Virus record (IMG/VR): IMGVR_UViG_3300031772_000007
Coordinates: 29,826-93,825 of that record
Reading direction: 5' to 3' (one strand)
DNA length: 64,000 bases
From: a virus
The position numbers and the translations under genes are program-made. Positions 8,566 to 45,362 of the stretch are shown here, piece by piece (positions within the stretch are counted from its first letter, which is position 1; every line of letters begins with the position of its first letter). The notes beneath the pieces were generated by a model. The model had not been told where the DNA came from. It searched no databases and saw only the letters and a program-made list of their open reading frames with translations.

Positions 8566-8567
8566 AA

Positions 8568-9486: not shown

Positions 9487-9846
9487 TCAGAAGCTCCCTG
9501 TGAGCCGTCGGGCCGCTTCCCGGGCTCGCATCACCTGCTCGACGTGCGCCAGCACGTCCCGGAAGCGCTTGAAGCACACGCCCACCCCGAGCGTGAGGGT
9601 GTTCCCCGGTGGCGAGCGGTCGTAGAAGACGTATTCCGTCCGCGTTCGGAACCGATGCCCCACCCACTCGTGCCGGGAGATGCGGTAGAAGAAGATCGCC
9701 TCCCCCGATGTCTCCCACGGGTTCTTCACCAGAAGAAAGGCGTTTCCCTTCTCGCGGGTGAGCGCCATCCCGTTCGACAGCCGGACGTGGCAGCCCACTC
9801 GGAGCTTGGAGGGAGCGCAACGAATCTCTTGGGTGAGGTTGCCCAT
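9487..9846 (-). CDS. Small orphan, RLxG-tag family (EAARRLTG)
   Basis: C-terminal motif in register with paralogs. Confidence 0.7.
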   Translation of the reverse strand: MGNLTQEIRCAPSKLRVGCHVRLSNGMALTREKGNAFLLVKNPWETSGEAIFFYRISRHEWVGHRFRTRTEYVFYDRSPPGNTLTLGVGVCFKRFRDVLAHVEQVMRAREAARRLTGSF

Positions 9847-10286
9847 CAGTAATACCCCACGGACTCAGGCTTCCCGCCCAGCCGCGTTACCGCATCCCAC
9901 CGGGTGAACAGCGCGTTAGCTTGGTCCAGACACGCCTCCGTGCTCCCCCGATAGAGCACCTTCCTCACTCGGCGCTTCCGAACCCTGTACCAGTGCGACG
10001 AGAGCCACCCGTCATGCAGCTCCGCTTCGTGGTAGTGGTAGTGCCACCTCGGGCGAACCCAGAGATCAAGCCTGTATCCCTCTGCCAAGACGACCCAAGT
10101 GTTCCTGATGTGGTTCGGCTCCACGGTGAGCCCGAGCTGCGTCCCCACAAAGCGCGTCGCCCCGCCCAACGCGCAGATTTCGAGAAAGCGCCTGCGCGCC
10201 GTGCTCGCTCCCTGCTCCTTGAGCAAGTCCTGCCGCGCCCGCTCGCGCATCACCTGCCACTTCCTGTGCCCCTGCCAGTCGCTCAC
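9846..10286 (-). CDS. Small orphan, RLxG-tag family (DAVTRLGG)
   Basis: GTG start coupled to upstream stop; motif. Confidence 0.65.
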   Translation of the reverse strand: MSDWQGHRKWQVMRERARQDLLKEQGASTARRRFLEICALGGATRFVGTQLGLTVEPNHIRNTWVVLAEGYRLDLWVRPRWHYHYHEAELHDGWLSSHWYRVRKRRVRKVLYRGSTEACLDQANALFTRWDAVTRLGGKPESVGYY

Positions 10287-10636
10287 ACCACGAACCTTGC
10301 CCCGAGGCGCTTCCGCTGTCCCGTCAGCCGTGCAACCGTCTCCGCAGCCTGAAGGCACTGCCTTCCCACCGCGAACGCTTCCTTCACCGTCAGGCAGGAC
10401 TGCTCCCACCTGACGTGGACGCTTGTGGCTGTCTTCTCGAACACCCGGACAAACCACAGGTGCGAAAGCAATGGCTCCAGCATCTTCTGCACAACCACGT
10501 GATGACGGTCGGTGGTGAGCCCCCGCCACCAAAGCACGTAGAACTCCTTGCAGTACGAAACCGTAACCTCCCCCCAGTAGCACTGGCGGTCGGGAATGCC
10601 CCGCCCGTGGACCGGATCCAGCGGAACTCGCTGCAT
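10283..10636 (-). CDS. Small orphan, RLxG-tag family (ETVARLTG)
   Basis: TGATG coupling; motif. Confidence 0.65.
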   Translation of the reverse strand: MQRVPLDPVHGRGIPDRQCYWGEVTVSYCKEFYVLWWRGLTTDRHHVVVQKMLEPLLSHLWFVRVFEKTATSVHVRWEQSCLTVKEAFAVGRQCLQAAETVARLTGQRKRLGARFVV

Positions 10637-10731
10637 CACGCCCCCAACCGAAGTGCCGCGTCCTCGATTGCCAGCCACACGAGCGCCACCGCCGCCCAGG
10701 CTGCCCAGAACGCTGCTTCGAGGTGGCTCAC
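10636..10731 (-). CDS. 31-aa membrane micro-protein MSHLEAAFWAAWAAVALVWLAIEDAALRLGA
   Basis: Read directly; translationally coupled at both ends; TM helix plus motif. Confidence 0.6.
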   Translation of the reverse strand: MSHLEAAFWAAWAAVALVWLAIEDAALRLGA

Positions 10732-10844
10732 GTTCCCCCCGGGGCTCCCACCTTCACGTCGTAGTCCTTCCTGTAGAAGTCAACCCACTTGACCCCGTTG
10801 GGGACGTACACTCCTCGTGCTCGCATGATGTCGTGCAGGCGCAT
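10728..10844 (-). CDS. 38-aa hypothetical peptide (MRLHDIMRARGV...)
   Basis: GGGGAGGAG RBS; fills the gap after terL. Confidence 0.5.
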   Translation of the reverse strand: MRLHDIMRARGVYVPNGVKWVDFYRKDYDVKVGAPGGT

Positions 10845-10892
10845 GTCTCTCTCCTCCCCAGAACCTTGCCCGCCGCGCCGCCGGTTGTCCCG

Positions 10893-12368
10893 CTACCGGC
10901 GCACCACGTCCAAGTGGGTCTGCACCGCCTTGAGCGCGCCGAGGCGCACGCCCTCCCGCGCGAACCAGCTCGCCATGAGGCGGTCCCCGGTGTGCGCCCG
11001 CGGGTCATAGAACAGCATCTCGTTCACCCACTCGTAGAGCTGCGGGTGGAGGCTGCCGTCCGTGTTGGGGATGATCCACTTCCGCCCCGCCATCTCCGCC
11101 GCGATGGACTCAATGCCGAATTCAGGGTGCGCCTTGTTCCTGCCCGTCGTGAACGCCCTGATCGGCACCGCGAAGTCCCGCCGTGCGAACTGGATGATGA
11201 AGTCCTGCGCCGCGTTGTTCTCCACGATGCAGATGGAGAAGTAGCGCCGATGGTGGTCGATGATCTTCAGGATGATTTCCGGCCCAGCCCAACGTCCCGC
11301 CTCGACGTTCAACACCTCGCGGTCGCCGTTCGGGTGCGCCGCGATGGTGAACAGGCAGGTGAGGTCCGCGCCGTCCTTCTGTTGCACCGCCAGGTCCACC
11401 CCGGTGTACGTCTTGATGCCGTTCGGTAGCGCCTGGAGCCCGTGGCAGAGCCGCTTCCCATTCCCGCGCTCCAAGCACCAGCCCACCCACTCCTTGCGGA
11501 AGCGCGCTTCCTCATCGCTTCGGGCGACGCAGAGCATCGTGCGCGCGAACTCCAACGGCCCCCGCTCCTCCTTCACCCGCTGGATGCGCTCCATCGGCCA
11601 CCGCTCGGGCCAACGCGGCTGCCCGTCGTCCCCCAGCACCGGGTAGCGCATCGCCACCCACCCTGGGAGCTTCGCCAGCCGGTGGAGGGCGTCATCTGGG
11701 TGGAAGGCGGTCCCAATCACCAGCACCCGCGCCTTCGCCGTGAGACGGGAGAAGAGGGACGCCTGAATCCACTGGAAGCAGTCCTCCCGCATCTTGGCGG
11801 AGCGGGTGTTCTCCGTGTCGAGGAGGTCGTCCACGATGAGGATGTCGATGCGGCTTCCCAGCACGTTGCCGTGGACGCCGAGGGTCTGCACGCTCGGGTC
11901 CTTGCTCTGGTAGGGGCGCGCAATCGTGATGGCACGGCTGGTCCACTGCTCCTTGCCAGGACGAAGCTCGGGGAAGACGGCGTGCAGCTCCGGGCTCGCC
12001 TCGATGTACCGCTTGATGGTGCGGAGGATCTTGTCCGCCTGCCCCGCAGTGTTACTGACAACGGCCACGCGGAGCGTCGGGTCCTGCCCAAGAAGCCAGA
12101 GCGTCCGGGCAATCGCCACCTGCCACGTCTTGCCCGACTCGACCGAACTCCAGATGATAAGCCGGTCGTGCAGCTCCGCCAGCTCGTGCCAGGCGACGTG
12201 GCAGGAGGCTTGGTCCAGCGGGAGCCCCGTCTTCTCGTCCCGCATGACCGCGGTGGAGAAGGCGTCGATGTCAATGCGCGCCGCTTCGACCAGCTCCCGG
12301 TTCAGGAAGGCGTCCGCCTCGGGGTCGAACTCCAGCTCGTCGGGGATGGCGGTCACGGTCGGAGGCAT
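10893..12368 (-). CDS. terL: Terminase large subunit
   Basis: Walker A VESGKT, Walker B ILIVDD, coupling IGT, nuclease GVDLA...D...HTGDRLMA; start uncertain. Confidence 0.92.
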   Translation of the reverse strand: MPPTVTAIPDELEFDPEADAFLNRELVEAARIDIDAFSTAVMRDEKTGLPLDQASCHVAWHELAELHDRLIIWSSVESGKTWQVAIARTLWLLGQDPTLRVAVVSNTAGQADKILRTIKRYIEASPELHAVFPELRPGKEQWTSRAITIARPYQSKDPSVQTLGVHGNVLGSRIDILIVDDLLDTENTRSAKMREDCFQWIQASLFSRLTAKARVLVIGTAFHPDDALHRLAKLPGWVAMRYPVLGDDGQPRWPERWPMERIQRVKEERGPLEFARTMLCVARSDEEARFRKEWVGWCLERGNGKRLCHGLQALPNGIKTYTGVDLAVQQKDGADLTCLFTIAAHPNGDREVLNVEAGRWAGPEIILKIIDHHRRYFSICIVENNAAQDFIIQFARRDFAVPIRAFTTGRNKAHPEFGIESIAAEMAGRKWIIPNTDGSLHPQLYEWVNEMLFYDPRAHTGDRLMASWFAREGVRLGALKAVQTHLDVVRR

Positions 12369-12390
12369 TCCAGCAGGCCAGCCCTGCGCG

Positions 12391-13362
12391 TCAGCTCTTC
12401 CCAGCCCCCGTTTGAGGATGTTGTTCAGCCCCAGATGTTGGACCAGCACCCGCCCCTCCTTGCACCAGAATCAATCCCTTGGCCTTCGCCCGCTCCAGCG
12501 CCCGCGCAACCGCTTTCAGCTTGATTTCCCGCTCCTCGATGCTGGAGTCCATGCTCTGCACCCCGATGACCTCGGTGGGCTGCCCCACCCGGAGCCGTTC
12601 CCCTTGGAGAGCCAGGATGATCGTCCGCTCCCCCATCTCCGCCAGGTGCATCATGTCCCTCGCCGTCTTGATGGCTTCCCGCGGAGACAGCTTGGACAGG
12701 TCCCCGAGCGCGGTGTGGAGCTGAGCAGCGATGGTCTGCGCGTCCTTCAGGAGCAGCGCCACGATGGCAGCGGCGGACAGCGCCGCCTTCCGCCCGAACT
12801 TCGCCGCGTTCGCCTCATCCGCCAGCGTCTCCGCGGCGTCCACCTTCGCCTTCACCAGCAGGTCCGCCAGCCGCCGCTTGGCCTCAATCTCCGCCCCCTG
12901 GAGGGTCGCCTGCGCCGCCTTCTGCGCGTCATCCACCTTGGACCGTGCCAGCTCCTCCACCTTGGCGAGCTGCGCCTGCGCGGCATCCAGGGTCGCCATC
13001 GCCTTGGCTTCCGCCACCCGGGCGTTCTCCGCCGCCTTCACCAGCATGTCGGTGGCGTCGATGGCCTCCGTTCGCGCCTGCGCCAACGAGGTGGATAGAA
13101 CGGACTCCACCACTTCCTTCTGCTCCTCAGTGGTGATACCCGCTCGCGCCGCCCGGGCGAGGAGACTGTCCATCTGGAGCTGATCGCGGACGGGAAGTGC
13201 GCCTTGAACGGTCGGCCAGCCCCGCTCGTACAACCGTTTCGCCGTGAGTCGGTCCATCTTGACCCTATCGGCGACCAGTTGGTGATGCACCCCCAGCTCG
13301 CGGTACGCTGCAAGCACCGCGTTGTAGCGTTGGATGGTCCGCGCTCGGTTGCCCCTCGCCAT
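12391..13362 (-). CDS. Putative terminase small subunit (N-terminal HTH, long coiled coil)
   Basis: Immediately upstream of terL; HTH-like N-terminus. Confidence 0.6.
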   Translation of the reverse strand: MARGNRARTIQRYNAVLAAYRELGVHHQLVADRVKMDRLTAKRLYERGWPTVQGALPVRDQLQMDSLLARAARAGITTEEQKEVVESVLSTSLAQARTEAIDATDMLVKAAENARVAEAKAMATLDAAQAQLAKVEELARSKVDDAQKAAQATLQGAEIEAKRRLADLLVKAKVDAAETLADEANAAKFGRKAALSAAAIVALLLKDAQTIAAQLHTALGDLSKLSPREAIKTARDMMHLAEMGERTIILALQGERLRVGQPTEVIGVQSMDSSIEEREIKLKAVARALERAKAKGLILVQGGAGAGPTSGAEQHPQTGAGKS

Positions 13363-13366
13363 GCTC

Positions 13367-13471
13367 AATACCCCCTCGCAACCCCTTCCGAATAGCACGA
13401 GGAGGCTCGCGCGGTCCAGCCTCCCTCGGGCAATACCCGGCGTCCGGTGCTCCCCGTGACCTAATACCCGG
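13367..13471 (-). repeat. GGGTATT direct repeats (3 copies, two as CCGGGTATT) upstream of terS
   Basis: aataccc at about 13367, 13432 and 13463. Confidence 0.5.
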
Positions 13472-13485
13472 TGAACCCCCGCGGG

Positions 13486-13821
13486 TTAATCCTCCGTGTT
13501 CCCGCGAAGACGCCCCGCCGCTTCTACTGCGCGCAGGTACACTTCCACGCCTTCCGCTGCTTCTCGAAGGTTCCGGTAGGGCGGGAGGGGGGATTCACCC
13601 TGGTTGAAGACCTCCAACCCTGACTGAACGAGCCACCAGCGTCGGACCCTCCTCTCGTTCCTCCCGGGAGGGTAATACTCCGCGTCCACCTGCGCCTTCC
13701 GGTAACGGGTGCCACTGCCCCAAGAACCCGGTTCCCCCTGGACACACACTGTAACGACCCACATGCCCCTGCCGCGCACGGTTAGGCTCAGCCCGGGGCG
13801 GATTCGTTGCCAGCACCTCAT
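13486..13821 (-). CDS. Small orphan, RLxG-tag family (EAAGRLRG)
   Basis: Tandem paralog of 13821-14153. Confidence 0.7.
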   Translation of the reverse strand: MRCWQRIRPGLSLTVRGRGMWVVTVCVQGEPGSWGSGTRYRKAQVDAEYYPPGRNERRVRRWWLVQSGLEVFNQGESPLPPYRNLREAAEGVEVYLRAVEAAGRLRGNTED

Positions 13822-14153
13822 CAGTCTTCCGTGTCCCCCTGGAGCATCCGTGCTGCCGCTCGGGCTCTCAGGTGCTCCTCTCCCTTCGCTGCCGCTACCT
13901 CCACCGTGCTAAACACCCCGAAGGGGAGATCCTGCCGATGGGTTCCTCGAAAGGCTCCGTTCGAGACGTACTCCATCAACCGCCACCCGTGGACCTTCTT
14001 GGTCGCCGTCACCTCGGGGACGATGTAGACCGCCTCGTGCCGAACGAAGCCTGTCTCCTCCATGCTCCCTGCGGTGCAGACCGTGAGGAACCAGAAACCG
14101 TTGGCCTGCCGGGTGAGGTTCACCCCGGGACGGATGCCCTCCCACTTACGCAT
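13821..14153 (-). CDS. Small orphan, RLxG-tag family (AAARMLQG)
   Basis: Tandem paralog of 13486-13821. Confidence 0.7.
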   Translation of the reverse strand: MRKWEGIRPGVNLTRQANGFWFLTVCTAGSMEETGFVRHEAVYIVPEVTATKKVHGWRLMEYVSNGAFRGTHRQDLPFGVFSTVEVAAAKGEEHLRARAAARMLQGDTED

Positions 14154-14469
14154 CCCCGCCCCCGAGCCGCCGGACGGCTTCCCTCACCCTCAACAGCTTC
14201 TTCGCGCCAGCCACGGCTTGCCGAAGGTAATGGTAGCGCGGTCGCGGGTCCACGAGCACCCGCAACCTCCAATCCAAGATGTCACCCCGCTCCCGTAGCT
14301 CATACACCTCGTAAACACGCCAGAACCTTAGTTCTTTGCGGAGAGTGCAGCTCAACCCGCCGCACCGGACTATCCACTCCCGGGGCTCGTCCTCGTGCCC
14401 CGTCTTGGCCGGATGAGAAGCGACAAAGAAGCCCTCTCCTTGGTCCCTGGTGACACCGCGGGCCATCAC
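14146..14469 (-). CDS. Small orphan, RLxG-tag family (EAVRRLGG)
   Basis: C-terminal motif. Confidence 0.7.
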   Translation of the reverse strand: MMARGVTRDQGEGFFVASHPAKTGHEDEPREWIVRCGGLSCTLRKELRFWRVYEVYELRERGDILDWRLRVLVDPRPRYHYLRQAVAGAKKLLRVREAVRRLGGGDA

Positions 14470-14765
14470 CCTACCCCTTTCAGCCGGTCCACCGCATCCA
14501 TCGCTCTCAGGGCAGCCTCCGCCGCCTGGAAGGCTTCCCGGACCGTGCCCGTGGCGATCCGCCGGATACCTGGCGGGAAGACGGCAATCCAGGTCCCACC
14601 CAGCGTCCGGTACACCTCGGCGTCCCGCGTGACGTAGGGCTCGAAGTCCGTATGTCTTTGTAGACCCACCCCTGTACCCAAGGACAGCAGGTAGTCGGGT
14701 GCGCCAACCTCGCTGGAAGGCGCGTTGTCGATGACCAGCCCGGTCTTGGTGACGACGCGCCTCAT
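14466..14765 (-). CDS. Small orphan, RLxG-tag family (DAVDRLKG)
   Basis: ATGA coupling; motif. Confidence 0.7.
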   Translation of the reverse strand: MRRVVTKTGLVIDNAPSSEVGAPDYLLSLGTGVGLQRHTDFEPYVTRDAEVYRTLGGTWIAVFPPGIRRIATGTVREAFQAAEAALRAMDAVDRLKGVG

Positions 14766-15124
14766 CGCCGCCGCTCCCCCGCCGTCAGCCGGTAGATGGC
14801 GTCCGTTCGCTCCGCCCACCGCAGCACCCCCTCCGGGTGCAAGAACTTCATGCTCCGAACCCGAAAGGCTCCCCAGCGCAGGTTCCGGCGGTCCTCGATG
14901 ATGGCGATCCGCCCCATCGCCGCTATCACCACCCGGAAGACGTAGTCCGGTCGCGTTCCGACGGACTCCGGGGTGTCCCCTCCGAACCGGATACCCAACG
15001 CCTCCACCCGCCATCTCCCGCTTTGCTCTACGAGCTGGTCGAACAGGGAATGGTAGACCTCCTGCATCGCCGACACGGGCATCACCTTCTCCCACCGAAG
15101 CCCGCGTTGCGCTTCCAGCCTCAC
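14762..15124 (-). CDS. Small orphan, RLxG-tag family (DAIYRLTA)
   Basis: GTGA coupling; motif variant. Confidence 0.65.
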   Translation of the reverse strand: MRLEAQRGLRWEKVMPVSAMQEVYHSLFDQLVEQSGRWRVEALGIRFGGDTPESVGTRPDYVFRVVIAAMGRIAIIEDRRNLRWGAFRVRSMKFLHPEGVLRWAERTDAIYRLTAGERRR

Positions 15125-15393
15125 ACTTTCCAACCCGCCTTCCTGATGTCGTCCCAACTGTAAACCGCGACCGATTCGTGCCCGTCCGGCTCGTGTCCAC
15201 CCACGCTGAGGAACCAGTTGCCGGTGAGCCGATGCACTGCGTCAACCAGCGAGGCGTACTCGGCGTCGTGATCTGCCGCCGTATGCGGGCTGTCGAACCG
15301 CCGCACCCGCCCGTGGTGTACCTGCTCGTCGAGCCATCCCCGGGGGAGCTTGTGCTTCCGCCAGAGCTGCCCGTAGGTCAGCCATTCGCCCAA
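15121..15393 (-). CDS. Xis/wHTH-like protein with tag (DAVHRLTG)
   Basis: WLTYGQLWRKHKLPRGWLDEQVHHGRVR; paralog of 18621-19154; TTG start inferred. Confidence 0.55.
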   Translation of the reverse strand: MGEWLTYGQLWRKHKLPRGWLDEQVHHGRVRRFDSPHTAADHDAEYASLVDAVHRLTGNWFLSVGGHEPDGHESVAVYSWDDIRKAGWKV

Positions 15394-15743
15394 GGGTCTG
15401 CCCTCCCTCCCAACCGCCGCTGCGCGTCCCAAATCCTGAAGGCTCGCACCGACCGCCGCTGTGCTTCCTCGAAGGTCGGGAACCAGTGCTGCACGCCCGA
15501 CGGTCCATCCACCCGCCACCGCACCTCCGCGAAGGTCGGCGGGAAGATGCTCATCTCGACCGGGTGGTAGAAGGCAATCTTCTCCGGGTTGCCGGGGTCC
15601 AGGTAGTCCCCTCCGACCGGAATGCTCAACCGGACGATGAAGTACGCCTGCCCCGACTTCCCCTTGTCGTCGAGTGGCATCACCCTCTGAAGGTCGATGC
15701 CTCCCCCCAGCTTCCGCTCCCACACGACGACCGGGACAGTCAT
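15378..15743 (-). CDS. Small orphan, RLxG-tag family (DAQRRLGG)
   Basis: C-terminal motif in register. Confidence 0.7.
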   Translation of the reverse strand: MTVPVVVWERKLGGGIDLQRVMPLDDKGKSGQAYFIVRLSIPVGGDYLDPGNPEKIAFYHPVEMSIFPPTFAEVRWRVDGPSGVQHWFPTFEEAQRRSVRAFRIWDAQRRLGGRADPWANG

Positions 15744-15967
15744 CAATGCCCCCCGGAGCGCCGAAGGTCCGCCCAAGCGGGCCAGACGTGGACCGTGCGC
15801 CCCTTTCCGGGGATGCCCGCCTCCCCCAGCTCCGCTCGACAGACGGCGCACTGCACCGCCGGTCCACACCGGCAGGTCTTGCTCTCCTCGTGCGCCGTGT
15901 CGAGCCCTTCCCGGTGGAGCACCACCAACCCATTCCGATGCCCACAGGTGTTCTTCGGCTGCGCCAT
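15743..15967 (-). CDS. Small Cys-rich hypothetical protein
   Basis: CGH, CRC and CAVC motifs. Confidence 0.5.
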   Translation of the reverse strand: MAQPKNTCGHRNGLVVLHREGLDTAHEESKTCRCGPAVQCAVCRAELGEAGIPGKGRTVHVWPAWADLRRSGGH

Positions 15968-15968
15968 C

Positions 15969-16259
15969 CTAAGCCCCCAACCTTTCCGCCGCTTCCTCTG
16001 CGCGGACGTGCTGCCGGACCAACCGAAAAACCGCGAGCGGGCTCGGGCAGTAGACGTGCGGGCGCACATCGACGTGCCGCCCGTCCCGGAACCCCGTCAG
16101 CAGCACGTCGTAGCCCGCCAAGTGCCGGGTGACGATGGCGCGAATCTTCCAGCTCCCGCGGAGCGCGAGCCAGCACACCCCGTACTTCTGCGGCATCACC
16201 ACGAGCCCGGCGACCTCGCGGACCTTCCGATTCCGCAGCCTGTCCCAAATCAACCGCAC
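15969..16259 (-). CDS. Small orphan, RLxG-tag family (EAAERLGA)
   Basis: C-terminal motif in register. Confidence 0.65.
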   Translation of the reverse strand: MRLIWDRLRNRKVREVAGLVVMPQKYGVCWLALRGSWKIRAIVTRHLAGYDVLLTGFRDGRHVDVRPHVYCPSPLAVFRLVRQHVRAEEAAERLGA

Positions 16260-16507
16260 GCCCCGAGCCTCCTCACCGCGTCCCACAGGGTAAGAGCCCT
16301 CTCCGCCGCTGCCTGCGCTTCCTCCTCCTGCTCGTGCAAGGTCGTCGCCCGAAAGGGATGAAACCCGCTGTAGTGGCACACCCAATCTCCACCCGGCTCT
16401 CCCTTTGTCGCCCGCTCCTCGACCCAGGCATGAGGACGCTGTTCTATCGGAACGCCGTCGTAGGTCCGCAGTTCCACCAGAACCATCCGGCGTTGATTGG
16501 GCTCCAT
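16250..16507 (-). CDS. Small orphan, RLxG-tag family (DAVRRLGA)
   Basis: C-terminal motif; start may be the GTG at 16585. Confidence 0.65.
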   Translation of the reverse strand: MEPNQRRMVLVELRTYDGVPIEQRPHAWVEERATKGEPGGDWVCHYSGFHPFRATTLHEQEEEAQAAAERALTLWDAVRRLGACG

Positions 16508-16581
16508 GCCCACCCGGCTCTCACCTCGGCGAAAGAGCCCTTCCTCCCCCCGAGGAGCCGTCGTTCTTGTCCTGCGCGGCT

Positions 16582-16827
16582 TCACGCCTTCTGCCACCGT
16601 GCCTTCTTCAGCACGCCCTTCTTCCGCCGCGGAATCATGTTCATGTAGAGCATGTCCTTCTCGTCGAAGCAGCCGGAGTGGGCCACCATCGCCCCAAGGG
16701 CGACGGACAGCGCCTCCTCGTGTTGCTCCTGCTCGAACGTCTGCGCCTTCCGCGACACGCACTGCATCAGCTCCAGCTTGCGCCGGAGGTTGTCGAATGC
16801 CCCTCGATACGTCAGCTTGCTTCTCAT
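16582..16827 (-). CDS. Hypothetical protein
   Basis: ATGA coupling; GGAGG RBS. Confidence 0.55.
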   Translation of the reverse strand: MRSKLTYRGAFDNLRRKLELMQCVSRKAQTFEQEQHEEALSVALGAMVAHSGCFDEKDMLYMNMIPRRKKGVLKKARWQKA

Positions 16828-18323
16828 GGCCCCTCCAAGTCGAACGCCTCGAACGTCTCCTTCAGCTTGCCCTTCTTCAGCGGACGGTACTGCTCCACGC
16901 GGCAGAACGAGGACGGCCCTACCTTCCCCGCCACCGCGTCCACGTACATCGAGAAGGCTCCGTCCTCGACAGTGTAGAACCACTTCGGAACGTGCGCTGC
17001 CTTCAGCGCCGACTCGCTCTCCCGAGCCAGCGCGGTGTCGATGCCGATGCTACGCGCCCGCGGATAGCCGCCGTCCAGCCGGTCCCCGGCGTCGAGCGCC
17101 AACACCTGCTTCACCCACTCGTCGTAGGAGTACGGCTGGAACGTCTCCGCCCGCCCCTGCCGCTTGAAGCCCAACAGCTTCACCTGCACCTTGCACCGCT
17201 CCGCTTCGGTGAGGATGTCCCCCAGCACCTCCAACGGCGTCGAGCCCATGACGTACTGCGCCGTAAGCCGCCCCTCTAAAAGCCAATCCTGCCCCTTCTC
17301 GTGATAGCCCGCCGCATGGGAGAGAGCTGTGACCTCGTCCGGGCTCGCAACCGTGTACGCGCAGGAGGAGTAGTACGCCATCGCCACTTTCATGTCCCCC
17401 GAGCCGAGATAGTGGATGTCCCGAGTGGTGAAGTTGGCGACCATGCCGTGCTCCCGGCACTCCCTCCCGATGTCGATGAACTTCGGATGCGAGGTGGGCT
17501 CCCCGCCACCCACCGCGATCTCCAGCACGCCCACCCCCGCCAGCTCCTTGATGATGCCCTTGAGCTTCGGGAACGATGCCGTCTCGCCGGTCGGGGTGCT
17601 CCCCTGGTAGCAGTAGGCGCACCCGTTCATGCAGCGGTCGGTGACCTTCAGGTCCACCAGCTCCGGCACCGATGCTCGCCACACCTTCGGGTGGCAGCCC
17701 TCGTCGGCGAACGAGAGGCGCGTCCGTGCGCCCGTCTCCCGGTTGAACAGGACCCAGTAGCCGTACTTAGGGTCCTTCCGCGCCACGATGTTCACCCCCC
17801 GTTGGAAGTCGCTGCCGAAGTCCACCGGAACCCTCTCAACACCCCCCGCCTCAAGGGTTGGGTGCGTGTCCCCGTTGTCGTTCCCCCCGAGAACGGCCAC
17901 CCTGTCGCTCAACACGAAGTCTCGCAGGTCCCGCGCGAACTCCAGATTGGGCTCCTTCTGCGTGCCCACCTGCGCCGGTAGCTTGTCCATCAGGCTTTGG
18001 TGGTCCACGTAGCCCTCGGGCTCCGGCCCGTCCGCCTTCTGCTTCCACTCCAGCACGCCCGGCAGCAAGTCCTCGACGAACCGCCGCGCCATTTCCCTGT
18101 CCGGGTGGAACTGCACCCTGAACACCTCCCAGAACTGGAGCGCCACGTACTTCGCCTTCTCCTCGCGCGACGTGAGCGTGAACATCTCCCACCCAAACTC
18201 GGGGCTGCACCACGCCTCCTCGCGCGCTTCGCCGGGGCGCAGGAAGATGAGGGTGTGATCCGAGCTGCTGTTGTTCGCAAAGCCCAGCCTGACGTTATGA
18301 ATCCTCGCGGTCCTCAAGCCCAC
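16824..18323 (-). CDS. Radical SAM protein fused to an N-terminal GFxNNSSSxH domain
   Basis: CMNGCAYC and GGGEPT; N-terminal RLGFANNSSSDH. Confidence 0.85.
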   Translation of the reverse strand: MGLRTARIHNVRLGFANNSSSDHTLIFLRPGEAREEAWCSPEFGWEMFTLTSREEKAKYVALQFWEVFRVQFHPDREMARRFVEDLLPGVLEWKQKADGPEPEGYVDHQSLMDKLPAQVGTQKEPNLEFARDLRDFVLSDRVAVLGGNDNGDTHPTLEAGGVERVPVDFGSDFQRGVNIVARKDPKYGYWVLFNRETGARTRLSFADEGCHPKVWRASVPELVDLKVTDRCMNGCAYCYQGSTPTGETASFPKLKGIIKELAGVGVLEIAVGGGEPTSHPKFIDIGRECREHGMVANFTTRDIHYLGSGDMKVAMAYYSSCAYTVASPDEVTALSHAAGYHEKGQDWLLEGRLTAQYVMGSTPLEVLGDILTEAERCKVQVKLLGFKRQGRAETFQPYSYDEWVKQVLALDAGDRLDGGYPRARSIGIDTALARESESALKAAHVPKWFYTVEDGAFSMYVDAVAGKVGPSSFCRVEQYRPLKKGKLKETFEAFDLEGP

Positions 18324-18624
18324 CTCCCAGCCGGTAGGTGGATTCCCACCGGGCCATGATTTCCTCTGCGTCGTAGAGCGCCTGCACCAACGTCGGACGC
18401 CAGCGCCCCGTCTCCAGTTGGGACGCCCTCTGGTACTGGAGCATCCCCTGTGGCGTCCGTCGCGTCTCCTGCATCTCCACCGAGGCGAACCAGCCCCCGG
18501 CTCCCTTCCGCAGCCATCCCGTCATGCACCTTTCCTCGGGAGCCAACCTGACCACCCTCACGTAGCTGCCACGGGATATGCTCCATCCCTTCTCGGTGAG
18601 TCCCGTGCCTTCCTCGTCCGTCAC
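18295..18624 (-). CDS. Small orphan, RLxG-tag family (ESTYRLGG)
   Basis: C-terminal motif in register. Confidence 0.65.
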   Translation of the reverse strand: MTDEEGTGLTEKGWSISRGSYVRVVRLAPEERCMTGWLRKGAGGWFASVEMQETRRTPQGMLQYQRASQLETGRWRPTLVQALYDAEEIMARWESTYRLGGGLEDREDS

Positions 18625-19154
18625 GGGCCACTCCCGAACGTCTCGTAGCGCCGTGGCGCGCAGATGATGCAGCCCCGCGGCGTCAGTTGCTCGGTGGGGA
18701 CCTCCGCGCCACAGTTGGGGCACCGGGACAGTTCCGCGTACAGCTTCACCTTCCCCGCTCCCGAGATGTTGACCCCCGACTGCTCGACCACCCGCTGCGC
18801 CGGAGATTCCTCCCCGGTGAGCCGCGCCGCCGCGTCGTTCACGATGAACTGCCCCACGTCGTAGTACGTCTCGCCGGGGCTCACCTTCGTCCCATCAGCC
18901 AACTCCGCCAAGACGATGCTGTTGTCCGGCTTGAACATCCACGCCTTCGAGCCGCCCGCCGGGAACTGCGCGATGTGCTTCAGCAGGCTCTCCCCCTGCA
19001 CCCACCGGACCTCGCCACTTCGCACCAGCACGTCGAGCCCGCCCCGCGTCATCTTCAGGTCCCGCCAGATGTCCGTGTACGTGCGCCACTGGCGGTCGGC
19101 GTCCCCCGGCTGGAGGACGTACTCGCTCGACCCGACGTAGCCCCAGCGGTTCAT
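18621..19154 (-). CDS. Xis/wHTH-like plus Zn-ribbon protein with tag (DAAARLTG)
   Basis: WRTYTDIWRDLKMTRGGLDVLVRSGEVR; CPNC...CIIC. Confidence 0.6.
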   Translation of the reverse strand: MNRWGYVGSSEYVLQPGDADRQWRTYTDIWRDLKMTRGGLDVLVRSGEVRWVQGESLLKHIAQFPAGGSKAWMFKPDNSIVLAELADGTKVSPGETYYDVGQFIVNDAAARLTGEESPAQRVVEQSGVNISGAGKVKLYAELSRCPNCGAEVPTEQLTPRGCIICAPRRYETFGSGP

Positions 19155-19387
19155 AGCTCCAGAGTTACCTCCAGCACGTCGTACAACCTGCTCCCGAGTG
19201 CCCTGATGGTTTCCAAGTCGCCGTCCACCACGAGAAGCGCCTGCGCTCGTATCGGCTTCCCCGCCAGGACGCGCTCCGCCTTCATCGCCATGATCGCCTG
19301 CGCGCACTGCGTCAGAGATTCCGCAAGGCACTCGCCCGTCTCATCCACCACCGTTGCAACCGGCGTTGCCTTCGCTCGGAGCTTCAT
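19151..19387 (-). CDS. Hypothetical protein
   Basis: Coupled ORF. Confidence 0.55.
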   Translation of the reverse strand: MKLRAKATPVATVVDETGECLAESLTQCAQAIMAMKAERVLAGKPIRAQALLVVDGDLETIRALGSRLYDVLEVTLEL

Positions 19388-19881
19388 AGGTGCCTCGGCT
19401 TCGGCGGTCGGGGCTCCCTCCCCTGAAGACGGTCCACCGATTCCCGAGAGGCCAACTCCATGCGCTTCGCCTCGTAGGCGTCGGCCAGCACCTTGCGACA
19501 GACCGGGTCCGCTACCCTGTAGACGTGCTCCCCCGCGGGGAACAGCTTGCCGAAGCGCCAAAGCTGCCCGTACTCCTCCACGAAGCCCGACCCGGCGAAG
19601 CGCTTCGTCTGCTCGAAGATGCCGAGCTGTAGGAGAGTCCGCTGGATGCGCCATCGGGCGGATCTGCCCTCCCGCGCCCCCGTCACCGGGATGAAGAACT
19701 CGTCAGGCTCCACCTTCTCGTCCACGAGGTTCACCGTCAGCTTGTCCAGCGCCTCCCCCGCGTCGGTGGTGACGTAGAGCGCCCCGTTCCCGTTGCTGTA
19801 ACGCCCCCCGTGAAGAACACAGGGATCCTCATCGAGATAGAAGCGGAACCCGTCCGCCGCCTTGAAGGGGTCCACCCTCAC
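19384..19881 (-). CDS. Hypothetical protein with C-terminal tag (ESVDRLQG)
   Basis: GTGA coupling; motif. Confidence 0.6.
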   Translation of the reverse strand: MRVDPFKAADGFRFYLDEDPCVLHGGRYSNGNGALYVTTDAGEALDKLTVNLVDEKVEPDEFFIPVTGAREGRSARWRIQRTLLQLGIFEQTKRFAGSGFVEEYGQLWRFGKLFPAGEHVYRVADPVCRKVLADAYEAKRMELASRESVDRLQGREPRPPKPRHL

Positions 19882-20372: not shown

Positions 20373-20388
20373 CTGCCCCGTCTCCGGG

Positions 20389-20607: not shown

Positions 20608-20632
20608 CTGGAAACCTTGCCCGGACGCAGGC

Positions 20633-38071: not shown

Positions 38072-38223
38072 TTGCGCTTCACCTCCTCCCAGCCCAGCCG
38101 CCGCGCCGCCGATTCAACCACCGCCCGCTTCAACCGCCGCGCAAACCATCGCTCCATCAGGAACCGCCCGGCAAAGTAGGCCAGCACCCCGTCGAGAATG
38201 CCGTGGAACACCATCCAGATCAT
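38050..38223 (-). CDS. 57-aa membrane micro-protein with tag variant (ESAARRLG)
   Basis: Read directly: MIWMVFHGILDGVLAYFAGRFL...VVESAARRLGWEE; ATGA coupling. Confidence 0.55.
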   Translation of the reverse strand: MIWMVFHGILDGVLAYFAGRFLMERWFARRLKRAVVESAARRLGWEEVKRKWRNRSR

Positions 38224-38570
38224 TCAGCGGTCTGCTCCCCGCGCAAGCGCCGCGCGGCGTCGTCCGCCATCCTCACCTCATCGAACACAACAACCCGCCA
38301 CCGAATGTCGATGCAGTCCGGGTTCGCTCCTTCGACGTACTCCCCCAAGTACCACTCCGGTCCGACCCTCGGACGCCCGTAGGCGCGCGCGTTCCTCATC
38401 CATCGCTTCCCGGCGGTCGTCCCCGTTGGGAGCGAGCAGCTATACTCCCCGTAGTGGCTTACCAGCCGAGGGAGGTGCTGCGGAAGGATGGACACCTCCT
38501 TCTCGGTGACATGCACCATCCCGACGTTGGGCACGTTCTCCCAAATGCCGTCCTGCGTCACCCAAGACAT
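38220..38570 (-). CDS. Small protein with C-terminal tag (DAARRLRG)
   Basis: RBS; motif. Confidence 0.65.
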   Translation of the reverse strand: MSWVTQDGIWENVPNVGMVHVTEKEVSILPQHLPRLVSHYGEYSCSLPTGTTAGKRWMRNARAYGRPRVGPEWYLGEYVEGANPDCIDIRWRVVVFDEVRMADDAARRLRGEQTAE

Positions 38571-39412
38571 AGCCGCGCCTCCTCGTCCAGCCACTCCCGC
38601 GGCATCTCGTCCGGGTCCTTCCCCGGGGGCAACCTGACGAAGCCCGCCTCCTGCCCCTCAAGCTGAAGCGTCATCGCCAGCGTTCGTCCTTCCTCCCAGG
38701 CATCCCCGTCCAGGCACGCGACAATCGGTCGGGGTGCGTCCGCAAGCGCAAAGACTTGGGGGTCGCTCGGCTTGCCCAGCACAGCGACCGCATCCGGCCA
38801 GAGCGCGAGGGCGTCCATGACTCCCTCAACCACGAAGCACGGGCGGTCCGTCCGCTTCAGCAGCGCCGCATGGTTGTAGAGCAGTTCCCGCCGGTTCATC
38901 CCCTTCGGGTACAGGTAGGGCACCTGTGCCTTCTTCTCCCACGCTCGCGCGACGAACCCCCGCCACTGCCCCTCCGGGTCCAACACCGGAACGATGACAC
39001 GCCCGCGGTAGTACCCCTCGAAGCATCCGCCGATGTGAGCCTCCCGCCACAGCACCTCGTCGGTGAGCCCGCGTTTGATGAGGTGCTGTCGGTGGGGCTC
39101 CAAGCACTCCGCCGTCCGCCCGTCACCTCGCCCCAGCTCGTAGAAGCTCTCGGGCGGGTCGATGTAGAGGGTTTCCGGTTCCTCCCCCTGGAGGCGGTCC
39201 ACCGCGTCCGCGTAGTCCCCATCCAGCCGCCCCACCAATCCGCACTTGAAGCAGCGATACCACCCCGTACCCGCGTTGAAGCTGAAACTCCCGCGCCGGT
39301 CCGGCTTCCCAGTCCGCAGGTCGCACGCGAGACAGATGCCCCGCCGCCACTCGCCGCTCCCGCGGCAGTCGTGCGTGCTCCGCTCCGCGAGTGCTCTGAT
39401 CTCCGCCTTCAC
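38558..39412 (-). CDS. DNA primase (Zn finger plus TOPRIM)
   Basis: CLAC/CFKC; VVEGVMDAL; LDGD; KDPDE. Confidence 0.9.
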   Translation of the reverse strand: MKAEIRALAERSTHDCRGSGEWRRGICLACDLRTGKPDRRGSFSFNAGTGWYRCFKCGLVGRLDGDYADAVDRLQGEEPETLYIDPPESFYELGRGDGRTAECLEPHRQHLIKRGLTDEVLWREAHIGGCFEGYYRGRVIVPVLDPEGQWRGFVARAWEKKAQVPYLYPKGMNRRELLYNHAALLKRTDRPCFVVEGVMDALALWPDAVAVLGKPSDPQVFALADAPRPIVACLDGDAWEEGRTLAMTLQLEGQEAGFVRLPPGKDPDEMPREWLDEEARLCLG

Positions 39413-39675
39413 TTCTTGTCCCTCACGCAAATTTCCAGGTGCAACGTCTCCGGCATGGGATCGCCCGACACGTACTTGCTCGACACCTCCCGAAGAATTC
39501 CCCGGAATGCTGTGTGCCCCCCGAAGTAGGTCCCGCTCGAAAGAATGACTATCGCGGCATTCTCAAGCGCACGGTGCCCCTGCACCCCCGTCAACCGGAG
39601 CGCCGCTTCGACGCCCAAAGGCACTTCCTCGTCGGGCGCGACCGCCATGCCCCAGATGAGATCCCGGACACGCAT
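39409..39675 (-). CDS. Hypothetical protein with tag (EAALRLTG)
   Basis: TGATG coupling; motif. Confidence 0.55.
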   Translation of the reverse strand: MRVRDLIWGMAVAPDEEVPLGVEAALRLTGVQGHRALENAAIVILSSGTYFGGHTAFRGILREVSSKYVSGDPMPETLHLEICVRDKK

Positions 39676-44408: not shown

Positions 44409-44900
44409 CTACCCCCCTCCCTTCATCAGCGACCGCCCGCGATTCAGCATCTCGTCGTAGCTCTCCCCCGGCAGCCGGGTGATGCCGAACACCGCCGCTA
44501 GAATCTTCTCCCACGCGGGGTCGTAGGTGCCTGCCAGCCGCGCCGCTGCCTCCGCGACTTCTGACATCCTGGGGGCACCCCGAAGGATGCCTGCCGCCAC
44601 CCGGGTTTCCAGCTCGGCGAAGTCGATGTTGCTCACTATCGACTCAAACACCTGTCGGGGGTCACTTGCCACCGAGCTTCCCCCCCCCCCCGCCTTGATC
44701 GCCTCGTTGAGCACCCGCGCCATCGCCTCACCGACCTTCTGCTGTGCCTGGAGGGACGAGGAGATCCTGCCGCTCGTCATCTTGAGAAACCAAGCGCTCT
44801 CCTTGGAGGTGAGCCCGTGCGTATCGACGCCCTGGAGCCGCTGGACGGCTTCATCTATCAGCTTGCGTCGGTGCCACCGCTTGCTTCGCTTGGAGCGCAT
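44409..44900 (-). CDS. Hypothetical protein with two tags (EAVQRLQG, EAAARLAG) and a G12 tract
   Basis: Motifs; homopolymer at 44680-44691. Confidence 0.6.
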   Translation of the reverse strand: MRSKRSKRWHRRKLIDEAVQRLQGVDTHGLTSKESAWFLKMTSGRISSSLQAQQKVGEAMARVLNEAIKAGGGGSSVASDPRQVFESIVSNIDFAELETRVAAGILRGAPRMSEVAEAAARLAGTYDPAWEKILAAVFGITRLPGESYDEMLNRGRSLMKGGG

Positions 44901-45066
44901 CAAACGGACCCTCCGTGTCGTAGAAGACCTCGATTTTCGGCGCGGGAACGACTCGCGTGAACTCCCACGTCCCAAGGTCCGGCTCCCGTGGCGGGTTCAG
45001 CCGCCGAACCGCCTCCCCCACCTCCCGGTCCCTCTTCCTGCGCGCCTGCTGTCGGCGACTGCTCAC
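44851..45066 (-). CDS. Small protein with tag variant (EAVRRLNP)
   Basis: GTGA coupling. Confidence 0.45.
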   Translation of the reverse strand: MSSRRQQARRKRDREVGEAVRRLNPPREPDLGTWEFTRVVPAPKIEVFYDTEGPFDALQAKQAVAPTQADR

Positions 45067-45362
45067 GATTTCTTCTCCCCGTAGAGGAGCTTCGGAAAGA
45101 GCGCGGTGTGGAACGCTCGGTTCATCAGATTCTTCTGCACCAGCGTCCTGGCCTCGTCGCTCAGATCCCAGATGCTCCCGCCCTTCAACCGCCGCGCCGC
45201 GTCGTTGACCATCCAGTCCTTGCACCGCCGACACGTCACCTTCGCCGGGTTCTGCGTGATCTGGATGCCCTTCGCCTTCGCCCCGGGCGAGCAGACGATG
45301 TACCGGCAGGGCTCCCCGGGGTAACTGGCAGTGTCGGCCCGAAGGTGAACGATGCGCGGCAT
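45063..45362 (-). CDS. Small Zn-binding protein with tag (DAARRLKG)
   Basis: VTCRRC followed by motif. Confidence 0.6.
   Translation of the reverse strand: MPRIVHLRADTASYPGEPCRYIVCSPGAKAKGIQITQNPAKVTCRRCKDWMVNDAARRLKGGSIWDLSDEARTLVQKNLMNRAFHTALFPKLLYGEKKS

What the first reader, a model, noticed from the sequence alone, without database searches (positions are those of the whole stretch)
9487..18624. Hypervariable family of about 10-12 small paralogs with a 26-residue C-terminal helix in exact register (possible adaptor array)
Ten ORFs of about 95-145 aa align without gaps at their ends: FKRFRDVLAHVEQVMRAREAARRLTG, RGSTEACLDQANALFTRWDAVTRLGG, CLTVKEAFAVGRQCLQAAETVARLTG, YRNLREAAEGVEVYLRAVEAAGRLRG, FSTVEVAAAKGEEHLRARAAARMLQG, YHYLRQAVAGAKKLLRVREAVRRLGG, TGTVREAFQAAEAALRAMDAVDRLKG, FPTFEEAQRRSVRAFRIWDAQRRLGG, CPSPLAVFRLVRQHVRAEEAAERLGA, RPTLVQALYDAEEIMARWESTYRLGG. 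Their N-terminal parts are highly divergent and rich in Trp/Val/Arg, consistent with beta strands. The F-x-T-x-x-E-A helix cap recalls AP2/integrase-arm or dsRBD-like beta-sheet-plus-helix folds. They form two translationally coupled arrays on either side of the terminase genes. Inference: variable target-binding heads on a constant docking tail, like F-box adaptors, possibly an expandable anti-defence or host-takeover repertoire.
Basis: partly seen in the sequence, partly recalled or inferred. Interest (0 to 1): 0.86.

Follow-up and report, generated by a model that had tools for sequence, protein, structure and literature searches.

The report
Shared helix tag on phage proteins
An uncultured sediment phage encodes two chains of fast-evolving small proteins that share little beyond one C-terminal helix ending in D/E-A-A/V-x-R-L-x-G, and the same eight residues are also grafted into its helicases and primase, so the motif looks like a portable label whose reader is still unknown.

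Summary
All ten quoted C-termini are in the sequence and align without gaps. At least 16 genes between 9487 and 19881 carry the motif [DE]-A-[AV]-x-R-L-x-G, and the 94-kb genome has 27 matches against 0.56 expected from shuffles. All are on the coding strand and none is in a virion gene.

Selection acts on the peptide, not the DNA: synonymous positions vary, and 13 of 14 DNA-pattern hits inside genes are in frame.

Two members are modelled (pLDDT about 73) as six beta strands plus one long C-terminal helix. No known fold matches, and an AP2 or dsRBD fold is not supported. Once the helix is removed, only M4 and M5 still look like paralogs.

The motif also sits in linkers and tails of the primase, a DnaB-like helicase and an SF2 helicase. 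In the SF2 helicase it is an exact 8-residue insertion.

Related uncultured phages carry [DE]-A-x-x-R-L tails with their own flavours. No cultured relative exists, and the host is possibly Myxococcota.

Best reading (about 0.4): variable heads on a constant, portable docking label. No reader was found.

Other first readers noted this tag on this genome. The scan has also met different shared tails in other phages.

The parts
9487..9846 (-). M1, 119 aa, ends EAARRLTG + 2 residues
   Evidence: frame supported by GC3
9846..10250 (-). M2, 134 aa, ends DAVTRLGG + 8 residues. It is the only member with a detectable ortholog in relative G001.
10283..10636 (-). M3, 117 aa, ETVARLTG + 11 residues
10636..10731 (-). 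31-aa hydrophobic helix plus tag (DAALRLGA, then stop), coupled on both sides
10893..12449 (-). Large terminase subunit, which separates the two arrays. It has no tag in this genome.
12391..13362 (-). 323-aa protein upstream of TerL, rich in Ala, Glu and Lys over a long central stretch. I guess it is the small terminase subunit. No tag.
13486..13821 (-). M4, 111 aa, EAAGRLRG + 4 residues; clear paralog of M5
13821..14153 (-). M5, 110 aa, AAARMLQG + 4 residues. AF2 model: six strands plus helix 84-105.
14146..14466 (-). M6, 106 aa, EAVRRLGG + 3 residues
14466..14765 (-). M7, 99 aa, DAVDRLKG + 2 residues
14762..15124 (-).
15121..15393 (-). M7c, 90 aa, tag DAVHRLTG in mid-protein. Its N-terminus resembles that of M12.
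15378..15743 (-). M8, 121 aa, DAQRRLGG + 8 residues. AF2 model: six strands plus helix 91-110.
15743..15967 (-). 74-aa Cys/His-rich small protein inside the array, no tag
15969..16259 (-). M9, 96 aa, ends EAAERLGA, then stop
16250..16585 (-).
16582..16827 (-). 81-aa small protein inside the array, no tag
16824..18323 (-). 499-aa radical SAM protein embedded in the array. It is absent from the relatives compared, so it is not the tag's reader.
18295..18624 (-). M11, 109 aa, ESTYRLGG + 8 residues
18621..19154 (-). M12, 177 aa, internal tag DAAARLTG followed by a CxxC...CxxC tail
19151..19387 (-). 78-aa small protein inside the array, no tag
19384..19881 (-). M13, 165 aa, ESVDRLQG + 11 residues
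28172..28399 (-). 75-aa protein with DATERLGG (outside the finding)
38220..38570 (-). 116-aa protein ending DAARRLRG + 5 residues
38558..39412 (-). Primase-like protein, named from its Cys motifs and the first-stage note. Tag DAVDRLQG (39185-39208) lies in a linker that varies against the G002 ortholog.
   Evidence: note e1-6071589
39409..39675 (-). 88-aa protein with EAALRLTG near its N-terminus
39675..41234 (-). DnaB-like helicase, named from its alignment and the first-stage note. It has DAVSRLGG (40155-40178) and ETAERLGA (39768-39791). The second lies in a tail that runs beyond the aligned core of the shorter G002 ortholog (519 against 439 aa).
   Evidence: note e1-6071589
42891..44405 (-). 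SF2 helicase. EAVARLTG (44091-44114) is an exact 8-residue insertion against the G002 ortholog, just before the LRDYQ motif.
44409..44900 (-). 163-aa protein with two tags (EAVQRLQG, EAAARLAG)
45063..45365 (-). 100-aa protein with a CxxC motif followed by DAARRLKG

Best explanation
The region holds two translationally coupled chains of rapidly turning-over small proteins. Each is built as a variable beta-sheet body plus one long amphipathic C-terminal helix.

The hydrophobic stripe of the helix probably packs on the sheet (inferred). Its last two turns carry an invariant signature, D/E-A-A/V-x-R-L-x-G.

The same eight residues also occur by themselves in linkers and tails of the replication proteins. 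So the signature is a portable peptide label kept by selection on the protein.

The most likely use is as a common docking handle. One partner, from the phage or the host and not yet identified, would bind the helix end. It would thereby gather or handle about a quarter of the non-structural proteome. On this reading the small proteins are interchangeable clients or adaptors with different heads.

Shown: the motif, its statistics, peptide-level selection, portability, lineage-specific flavours and the predicted architecture. Inferred: binding, a single reader and any biological role.
For: - Statistics: 27 relaxed and 15 strict matches against 0.56 and 0.048 in shuffles; reversed control 1 and 0. 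All are on the coding strand.
- Peptide-level selection: third codon positions inside the motif carry no more information than flanking ones, and Leu, Arg, Ala and Gly codons vary. The degenerate DNA pattern has 16 minus-strand and 0 plus-strand hits. Thirteen are in frame, one is out of frame, and two lie in genes my caller missed.
- Portability: strict matches occur in proteins outside the small beta-plus-helix set, including primase, DnaB-like helicase, SF2 helicase and several other small replication-region proteins. In the SF2 helicase the tag is an exact 8-residue insertion against an ortholog 45% identical. In primase it lies in a variable linker. In the DnaB-like helicase one copy lies in a tail beyond the core aligned to the shorter ortholog. 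Of the 11 tags more than 15 residues from a stop codon that lie in a chosen coding frame, 10 keep Gly at +7 and one has Ala, although no start codon follows. So the Gly is not merely a ribosome-binding-site by-product.
- Architecture: both AF2 models give six strands plus a 20-22-residue C-terminal helix, with pLDDT 72.6 and 74.0. They share weak structural neighbours: 5edj, 3epu, 6d7k_H, 8q8o and 4akr.
- Heptad-like hydrophobic positions at about -22, -19/-18, -15, -11, -8, -6/-5 and -2 run along 36 aligned tails.
- Clade conservation with flavours: C-terminal [DE]A..RL occurs 13 times in this genome, 15 in G001 and 22 in G005. The reversed pattern occurs 3, 1 and 0 times. Position +2 is A or V in this genome and G001, but R in G005. 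G002 and G006 use E-A-x-W-R-L-G-G.
- Distribution: there are no tags in virion genes. They are concentrated at 9.5-19.9 kb and 38.2-45.4 kb.
Against: - No reader was identified. Every gene that this genome shares with tag-bearing G002 also has a homolog in genomes with few tags.
- In the small proteins the conserved Ala, Val and Leu continue the hydrophobic stripe of the helix. There the motif may be partly structural rather than a free docking peptide.
- About nine of 16 tags in the region overlap the G-rich ribosome-binding site of the next gene. This adds a second constraint on the L-x-G codons.
- The structure models rest on one and four sequences.
- No expression or protein data exist for this uncultured phage.
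Confidence: 0.4

Rival explanations
1. The motif is only the structural signature of one divergent paralog family. That signature would be helix packing, a D/E-to-R salt bridge at i and i+4, and a Gly C-cap. The family would have expanded by tandem duplication. Copies in other proteins would be left-overs of recombination with family genes and would have no function of their own.
For: - Tandem arrays exist, with proven duplicates: M4-M5 at 51 bits, and a G-S-L-x-W-A-K-R-R subfamily in G001.
- Two members have the same predicted architecture.
- The conserved A, V and L lie on the hydrophobic stripe of the helix.
- A related, looser C-terminal helix (A-R-x-A-L-x-x-G) is seen in the arrays of relative G004.
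Against: - Strict matches lie in proteins of other kinds, against 0.048 expected by chance for the whole proteome.
- The helicase tag is a clean 8-residue insertion in a linker, with no family body attached.
- With the helix removed, no similarity is left apart from M4-M5.
- In G005, position +2 is Arg, which is hard to bury.
Confidence: 0.2
2. The tag is a degradation or processing signal. A protease would recognise it to remove or trim early and middle proteins on schedule. Candidates are the phage VWA-metallopeptidase with its MoxR-type ATPase, or a host AAA+ protease.
For: - Tags are mostly within 0-11 residues of the C-terminus and are absent from virion proteins.
- The phage encodes a protein with conserved HExxH and MIDAS DxSxS motifs next to a MoxR-like ATPase.
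- VWA domains are proposed to capture peptides of substrate proteins for MoxR ATPases (PMC7159879).
- In G005, two tagged genes directly follow the VWA-metallopeptidase gene.
Against: - The VWA-metallopeptidase is equally present in relatives with few tags: G003, G004 and G006.
- Several tags are internal in essential replication enzymes, 139-399 residues from the end.
- The tag is never at a fixed distance from the free C-terminus.
Confidence: 0.15
3. The tag is a capsid-loading peptide. It would work like the capsid-targeting sequence of the T4 internal proteins, or like encapsulin cargo peptides. The small proteins would be packed into the head and injected with the DNA.
For: - The arrays flank the terminase, close to the portal and head genes.
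- Hypervariable small proteins sharing one short peptide recall the T4 internal-protein loci (my own knowledge, not tested).
- The phage has hypermodified-DNA genes, as T4 does.
Against: - The primase, two helicases and other replication-region proteins carry the tag too. Packing them into heads is unlikely.
- About 27 different cargoes is many.
- The tag is helical and often internal.
Confidence: 0.08
4. The motif serves translation, not the finished protein. The G-rich codons would be the ribosome-binding site of the next gene. The nascent helix would modulate termination and re-initiation in the coupled chain.
For: - In nine of 16 junctions the L-x-G(-G) codons lie from 2 nt inside to 14 nt upstream of the next start and supply runs such as GGGGG or GGAGG.
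- Nearly all of these genes are coupled by overlapping stop and start codons.
Against: - Seven tagged genes in the region have the tag 26-188 nt from the next start.
- Eleven tags lie deep inside or well before the end of their genes with no start nearby, and ten of them keep the Gly.
- The upstream D/E-A-A/V-x-R part has no ribosome-binding role.
- Synonymous positions are free.
Confidence: 0.07
5. The small proteins are a family of DNA-binding domains of the AP2 or integrase-arm type (beta sheet plus helix).
For: - The start of the helix follows F/Y-x-S/T-hydrophobic-x-E-A, and the preceding strands are rich in Arg and Trp.
- An arm-type integrase domain (3jtz) appears at Z 4.4 for M5.
Against: - There is no Pfam AP2 or arm-domain hit at E <= 0.1 for ten members.
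- Z 4.4 is inside the noise, and the best hits of other kinds reach only 5.7-6.1.
- The models have six strands, not three.
- The L-to-G spacing differs by one residue from the A-A-x-x-L-x-G of the AP2-like ORF seen in G004.
Confidence: 0.05

Closest known systems
Capsid-targeting sequence of the phage T4 internal proteins (IPI-IPIII loci); recalled from my own knowledge, not tested here
   Same: Clusters of hypervariable small phage proteins have unrelated bodies but share one short peptide that gives them a common fate. The phage has modified DNA.
   Different: The T4 peptide is N-terminal, about 10 residues long, and is cleaved off by the prohead protease. Here the peptide is the end of a C-terminal helix. 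It also sits inside replication enzymes, and neither cleavage nor packaging is shown.
Shared docking tails of phage replisome proteins: T7 gp2.5 and gp4 acidic C-termini on the polymerase, and T4 clamp-binding C-termini. Named as nearest in print in earlier scan notes; not re-read here.
   Same: One short motif shared by several DNA-handling proteins lets them dock on one hub.
   Different: Those tails are acidic or hydrophobic, extended, at the very C-terminus, and found on a handful of proteins. This motif is helical, contains an invariant Arg-Leu, may be internal, and marks about 27 proteins, most of unknown function.
Peptide capture by VWA domains working with MoxR AAA+ ATPases (Kaur, Burroughs, Iyer and Aravind 2020, PMC7159879)
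   Same: The phage encodes a MoxR-like ATPase and a VWA protein with an intact MIDAS motif. The tag has an invariant acidic residue of the kind MIDAS sites bind.
   Different: No link was shown. The pair is also present in relatives with few tags, and the co-fold gave no verdict.
Start-associated sequences of Cluster K mycobacteriophages: conserved DNA or RNA motifs just upstream of start codons. Recalled from my own knowledge.
   Same: A conserved element recurs at the 3' end of many small genes and overlaps the ribosome-binding site of the next gene.
   Different: Those are nucleotide motifs. Here synonymous positions vary, the hits are in frame, and many copies are far from any start.
F-box and similar adaptor families
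   Same: A constant short module is combined with variable target-binding bodies.
   Different: The F-box is a 40-50-residue, usually N-terminal, domain with a known partner (Skp1). Here only an 8-26-residue helix end is constant and no partner is known. There is no homology.

Membership tests
AP2 / integrase arm-type DNA-binding domain | Sequence match to the Pfam AP2 or arm-domain models | tested here: not met
   hmmscan of ten members against Pfam-A at E <= 0.1 gave only one unrelated weak PilX hit.
AP2 / integrase arm-type DNA-binding domain | Three-stranded antiparallel sheet packed by one C-terminal helix | tested here: inconclusive
   The models have six strands plus a helix. 3jtz scores Z 4.4 for M5, inside the noise. 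The models are only moderately confident.
dsRBD | Alpha-beta-beta-beta-alpha topology | tested here: not met
   Neither AF2 model has an N-terminal helix. Both give six strands and then one helix.
Single paralog family (common descent of all members) | Detectable similarity outside the shared helix | tested here: not met
   With the tag or the whole helix removed, only M4-M5 remain similar: E 3e-5 by BLASTP and 4e-6 by phmmer. Profile searches recover only their own seeds. A shared architecture is predicted for two members only.
Nucleotide-level repeat (start-associated sequence, recombination linker) | Conservation at synonymous positions and independence of reading frame | tested here: not met
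   Third positions carry 0.2-0.45 bit, like the flanks. The DNA pattern is in frame 13 times and out of frame once, with 0 hits on the other strand.
Short linear docking motif (portable peptide label) | The same short peptide occurs in unrelated proteins, in linkers or tails, and is gained by insertion | tested here: met
   The tag is in the primase linker, in the DnaB-like helicase, and as an 8-residue insertion in the SF2 helicase against its ortholog. Further strict matches lie in other non-family proteins.
Short linear docking motif (portable peptide label) | A defined binding partner | not testable with these tools
   No partner was identified, and no gene is exclusive to tag-rich genomes. 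Binding experiments are needed.
Ubiquitin-like or double-glycine processing site | A terminal G-G with a dedicated protease or E1-like enzyme encoded nearby | tested here: inconclusive
   Only part of the tags end in G-G; others end T-G, K-G, R-G, Q-G or G-A. Pfam scans of 40 larger proteins found no E1, JAB or C39 peptidase, but not all genes were scanned.
T4-type capsid-targeting sequence / encapsulin cargo peptide | Tagged proteins are present in the virion or shell | not testable with these tools
   Virion proteomics is needed. Tags on the primase and helicases argue against it.

The most novel reading that the evidence does not exclude
The motif is an address label read by one partner, from the host or a conserved phage protein. 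That partner would organise about a quarter of the non-structural proteome, meaning the replisome enzymes plus a fast-evolving set of small accessory proteins. Together with the different shared tails the scan has met in other phages, this would point to a general, undescribed way for phages to wire their proteomes.
Probability: 0.3. Interest if true: 0.8.

Novelty: new variant of a known kind. Interest (0 to 1): 0.6.

Why it matters
If one reader binds this label, a single short peptide would link the phage's replication enzymes with about 16 rapidly evolving proteins of unknown function. That would give a direct biochemical handle (peptide pull-down) on a large block of viral dark matter. 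It would also give a portable tag for directing proteins to the same place in infected cells.

Similar but unrelated shared tails in other phage lineages suggest a general principle that has not been described.

If the motif is instead only a family fold signature, the finding reduces to a new orphan family of small phage proteins.

Tried and rejected
- Chance or composition: rejected by shuffles, the reversed control and GC-matched relatives.
- DNA-level repeat, recombination linker or start-associated sequence: rejected.
- Pfam and PHROGs on ten members gave nothing usable.
- A word-index search of 5.8 billion proteins with M5 found only itself.
- A profile of 36 helix tails against 1.84 billion representatives found only seed proteins and two spurious repeat proteins. 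The 34-position profile has little power.
- The ESM Atlas search for M8 gave no named neighbours above chance.
- Foldseek against PDB (M8 model) and BFVD (M5 model), and VIA-align wide for both models, gave no match above noise.
- Radical SAM protein 16824-18323 as a peptide maturase reading the tag: only its CxxxCxxC region resembles PqqE, SPASM, MoaA or viperin enzymes. There is no Cys-rich C-terminal (SPASM-type) cluster by my reading of the sequence. The gene is absent from G001, G002 and G004-G006, which have tags.
- Comparative search for a reader gene exclusive to tag-rich genomes: none found.
- VWA-metallopeptidase as reader: its distribution does not follow the tag. A co-fold of it with the 34-residue tail gave 'no answer', so it is neither support nor evidence against.
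- Internal starts downstream of the internal tags in the helicase and primase: none within ribosome-binding-site distance, by reading the flanks.
- Megablast against the phage collection gave no match. The TerL protein search gave a best hit of 26% identity. A scan of genome contigs gave one distant Planctomycetota hit.
- Sequencing runs: only the probable source sediment metagenome holds the stretch, and no RNA holder is listed.
- My first conclusion that relatives G004-G006 lack tags was too strict. A looser core pattern shows G005 is tag-rich and G002, G004 and G006 have a few.

Full report
**Setting.** The window is bases 29826-93825 of a 93.8-kb IMG/VR virus record judged complete.
- GC is about 66% and nearly all genes are on the minus strand.
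- No cultured phage is close. The best TerL match in GenBank phages is 26% identical, and megablast finds nothing.
- The only public run holding the stretch is a sediment metagenome, probably its source.
- The phage's peptide deformylase has its nearest named cellular relatives in Anaeromyxobacteraceae, Sandaracinaceae, Polyangium, Persicimonas and Desulfuromonas. A Myxococcota host is therefore plausible but unproven.

**Observation.** GC3 frame plots support the reading frames. With the most likely starts the proteins are 96-134 aa.
- The set is larger than reported. M10, M7b, M13 and a 31-aa hydrophobic peptide (10636-10731) end in the same motif.
- M7c and M12 carry the motif internally.
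- That makes 16 of about 21 genes between 9487 and 19881.
- The exceptions are three small genes, a radical SAM gene and the two terminase genes.
- Stop and start codons overlap by 1, 4 or more bases at most junctions, so the genes form two coupled chains around the terminase.

**Is it more than chance?** A relaxed pattern, [DE][AST][AVSTQGI]xR[LM]x[GA], occurs 27 times in minus-strand frames of the whole genome and never in plus-strand frames.
- In the called proteome there are 27 relaxed and 15 strict matches. Shuffles give 0.56 and 0.048, and reversed sequences give 1 and 0.
- About 55 related terminase-bearing fragments, with GC up to 0.72, have 0-2 relaxed hits on the terminase strand. 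Three other loci (L003, L040, L039) stand above that.
- Ten related whole records searched with the degenerate DNA pattern have 0-3 hits each.

**Peptide or DNA?** The constraint is on the peptide.
- Third codon positions inside the motif carry 0.2-0.45 bit, like flanking codons. CTG, CTC, TTG and CTT, and CGG, CGC, CGT, CGA and AGG, are all used.
- The degenerate DNA pattern has 16 minus-strand and 0 plus-strand hits. Thirteen are in frame, one is out of frame, and two lie in genes my caller missed.

**Family or tag?**
- Pairwise searches link M4-M5 clearly (51 bits) and several others weakly, mostly through the helix.
- With the tag or the whole 26-residue helix removed, only M4-M5 stay similar. 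Profiles recover only their own seeds.
- AF2 models of M8 (single sequence, pLDDT 72.6) and M5 (four-sequence alignment, pLDDT 74.0, pTM 0.69) both show six beta strands followed by one 20-22-residue C-terminal helix.
- Their structural neighbours are weak, with best Z of 5.7 and 6.1, below the 7-8 typical of unrelated best hits. The two lists overlap in 5edj, 3epu, 6d7k_H, 8q8o and 4akr.
- Foldseek against PDB and BFVD gives nothing significant.
- So a common sheet-plus-helix architecture is plausible. Common descent of all members is unproven, and the AP2, arm-type or dsRBD idea is not supported.
- Across 36 aligned tails the helix shows an S/T N-cap. Hydrophobic or Ala positions fall at about -22, -19/-18, -15, -11, -8, -6/-5 and -2. 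It ends in D/E(-7), A(-6), A/V(-5), R(-3), L(-2) and G(0).

**Portability.** The last eight residues also occur alone.
- They are found in the primase linker, twice in the DnaB-like helicase, in the SF2 helicase, and in five other small proteins of the replication region and at 28.2 kb.
- Against the G002 ortholog (45% identical), the SF2 helicase tag is an exact 8-residue insertion just before the LRDYQ motif.
- The primase tag lies in a linker that differs completely between the two phages.
- One DnaB-like tag lies in a tail that runs beyond the core aligned to the shorter G002 ortholog.
- Eleven tags in chosen coding frames lie more than 15 residues from a stop codon. Ten of them keep Gly and one has Ala, although no start codon follows.
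- No tag lies in virion genes. None lies in the 45.6-53 kb block, which holds the sigma factor, a ParB-like protein, the MoxR ATPase and the VWA protein.

**Relatives.**
- G001 is the closest (TerL 66%, a partial record). It has long runs of small genes on both sides of its terminase, nearly all ending in A-x-x-R-L-x-G-like tails.
- Only M2 has a recognisable ortholog there, although structural proteins are 35-65% identical. Turnover of the bodies is therefore very fast while the tail stays.
- Counting the core [DE]A..RL within 18 residues of ORF ends gives 13 (this genome), 15 (G001) and 22 (G005). The reversed pattern gives 3, 1 and 0. G002, G004 and G006 have 3-4 each, and about 50 other fragments have 0-1.
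- Flavours are uniform within a genome and differ between genomes. Position +2 is A or V with G at +7 here and in G001. In G005, +2 is R with a looser end. G002 and G006 use E-A-x-W-R-L-G-G.
- G004 also has arrays with a looser A-R-x-A-L-x-x-G helix end.
- A profile of the 34-residue tail finds nothing beyond the seeds in 1.84 billion proteins, but its power is low.

**A second constraint.** In nine of 16 junctions the L-x-G(-G) codons supply the G-rich ribosome-binding site of the next gene. This may help explain why the tag sits so near the stop. It cannot explain the D/E-A-A/V-x-R part, nor the copies far from any start.

**Search for a reader.**
- Pfam annotation shows these proteins:
  - SbcCD-like nuclease;
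  - RecA;
  - gp32-like SSB;
  - family A polymerase;
  - thymidylate kinase;
  - ParB-like proteins;
  - a sigma factor;
  - MoxR-like ATPase;
  - a VWA-metallopeptidase with intact HExxH and MIDAS motifs;
  - peptide deformylase;
  - a thymidine-hypermodification set.
- Every gene shared with tag-bearing G002 is also present in genomes with few tags.
- The VWA-metallopeptidase occurs in G002-G006 irrespective of tag load.
- The radical SAM gene inside the array is unique to this genome.
- A dedicated phage-encoded reader is therefore not evident.

**Verdict.** The fold guess does not, and 'one family of paralogs' is only partly true.
- The most economical reading is a portable helical label under protein-level selection, probably a docking handle (confidence about 0.4).
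- Rivals are a purely structural family signature (0.2), a degradation or processing signal (0.15), a capsid-loading peptide (0.08), a translation-level role (0.07) and an AP2-like DNA-binding family (0.05).
- Other first-stage readers flagged the same tag on this genome.
- The scan has met different shared tails in several other phage lineages. I found no paper describing this one.

Noticed in passing
window 33582-37148 (-): This 1188-aa family A DNA polymerase has an N-terminal uracil-DNA-glycosylase-like domain, a 3'-5' exonuclease, and an intein with an HNH endonuclease inserted in the polymerase domain.
   Followed up: no
window 4264-4845 (-): A phage-encoded peptide deformylase lies next to a 567-aa protein that I take to be the portal. 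It is shared with G001 but not G004. Its nearest named cellular relatives are in Myxococcota and Desulfuromonas.
   Followed up: partly
window 16824-18323 (-): A 499-aa radical SAM protein is embedded in the small-gene array. Only residues about 218-303 resemble PqqE, SPASM maturases, MoaA or viperin. It has long unknown N- and C-terminal parts and no homolog in the relatives compared.
   Followed up: partly
window 47644-51211 (-): A conserved trio is present in relatives G002 and G004-G006: DUF6744 protein, VWA-metallopeptidase (HExxH and MIDAS intact) and MoxR-like AAA+ ATPase. The VWA-metallopeptidase is also in G003. Its role in a phage is unknown.
   Followed up: partly
window 19878-26077 (-): This is a DNA-modification cluster. 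It holds a Dam methylase, a radical SAM protein (PA0069/Rv2578c-like), two ParB_N proteins, a P-loop kinase and an amino acid:DNA transferase (PF18724). It agrees with the first-stage note on thymidine hypermodification.
   Followed up: partly
G004 (L074-L078), about 53.8-58.4 kb and 80.0-81.4 kb of that record: This relative, which has few strict tags, has arrays of small genes ending in a looser helix, A-[RH]-x-A-L-x-x-G. It may be an older or diverged form of the same tail.
   Followed up: partly
G001 (L063), 7937-8944 and 14095-14424: Five small paralogs share G-S-L-x-W-A-K-R-R before the tag. This shows tandem duplication inside the arrays of the closest relative.
   Followed up: no
window 15121-15393 and 18621-19154 (-): M7c and M12 share a 29-residue N-terminal segment (33 bits) that looks like a helix-turn-helix. 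Both carry the tag internally rather than at the end.
   Followed up: no
window 46254-46805 (-): A phage sigma-70-family factor (region 2 match) lies next to a ParB_N protein and an HTH_17 protein. The block is shared with G001, G004 and G005.
   Followed up: no
G002 record, 83448-85049 (-): In relative G002 the large terminase itself carries D-A-V-A-R-L-G-G at residue 337. The terminase of this window has no tag.
   Followed up: no
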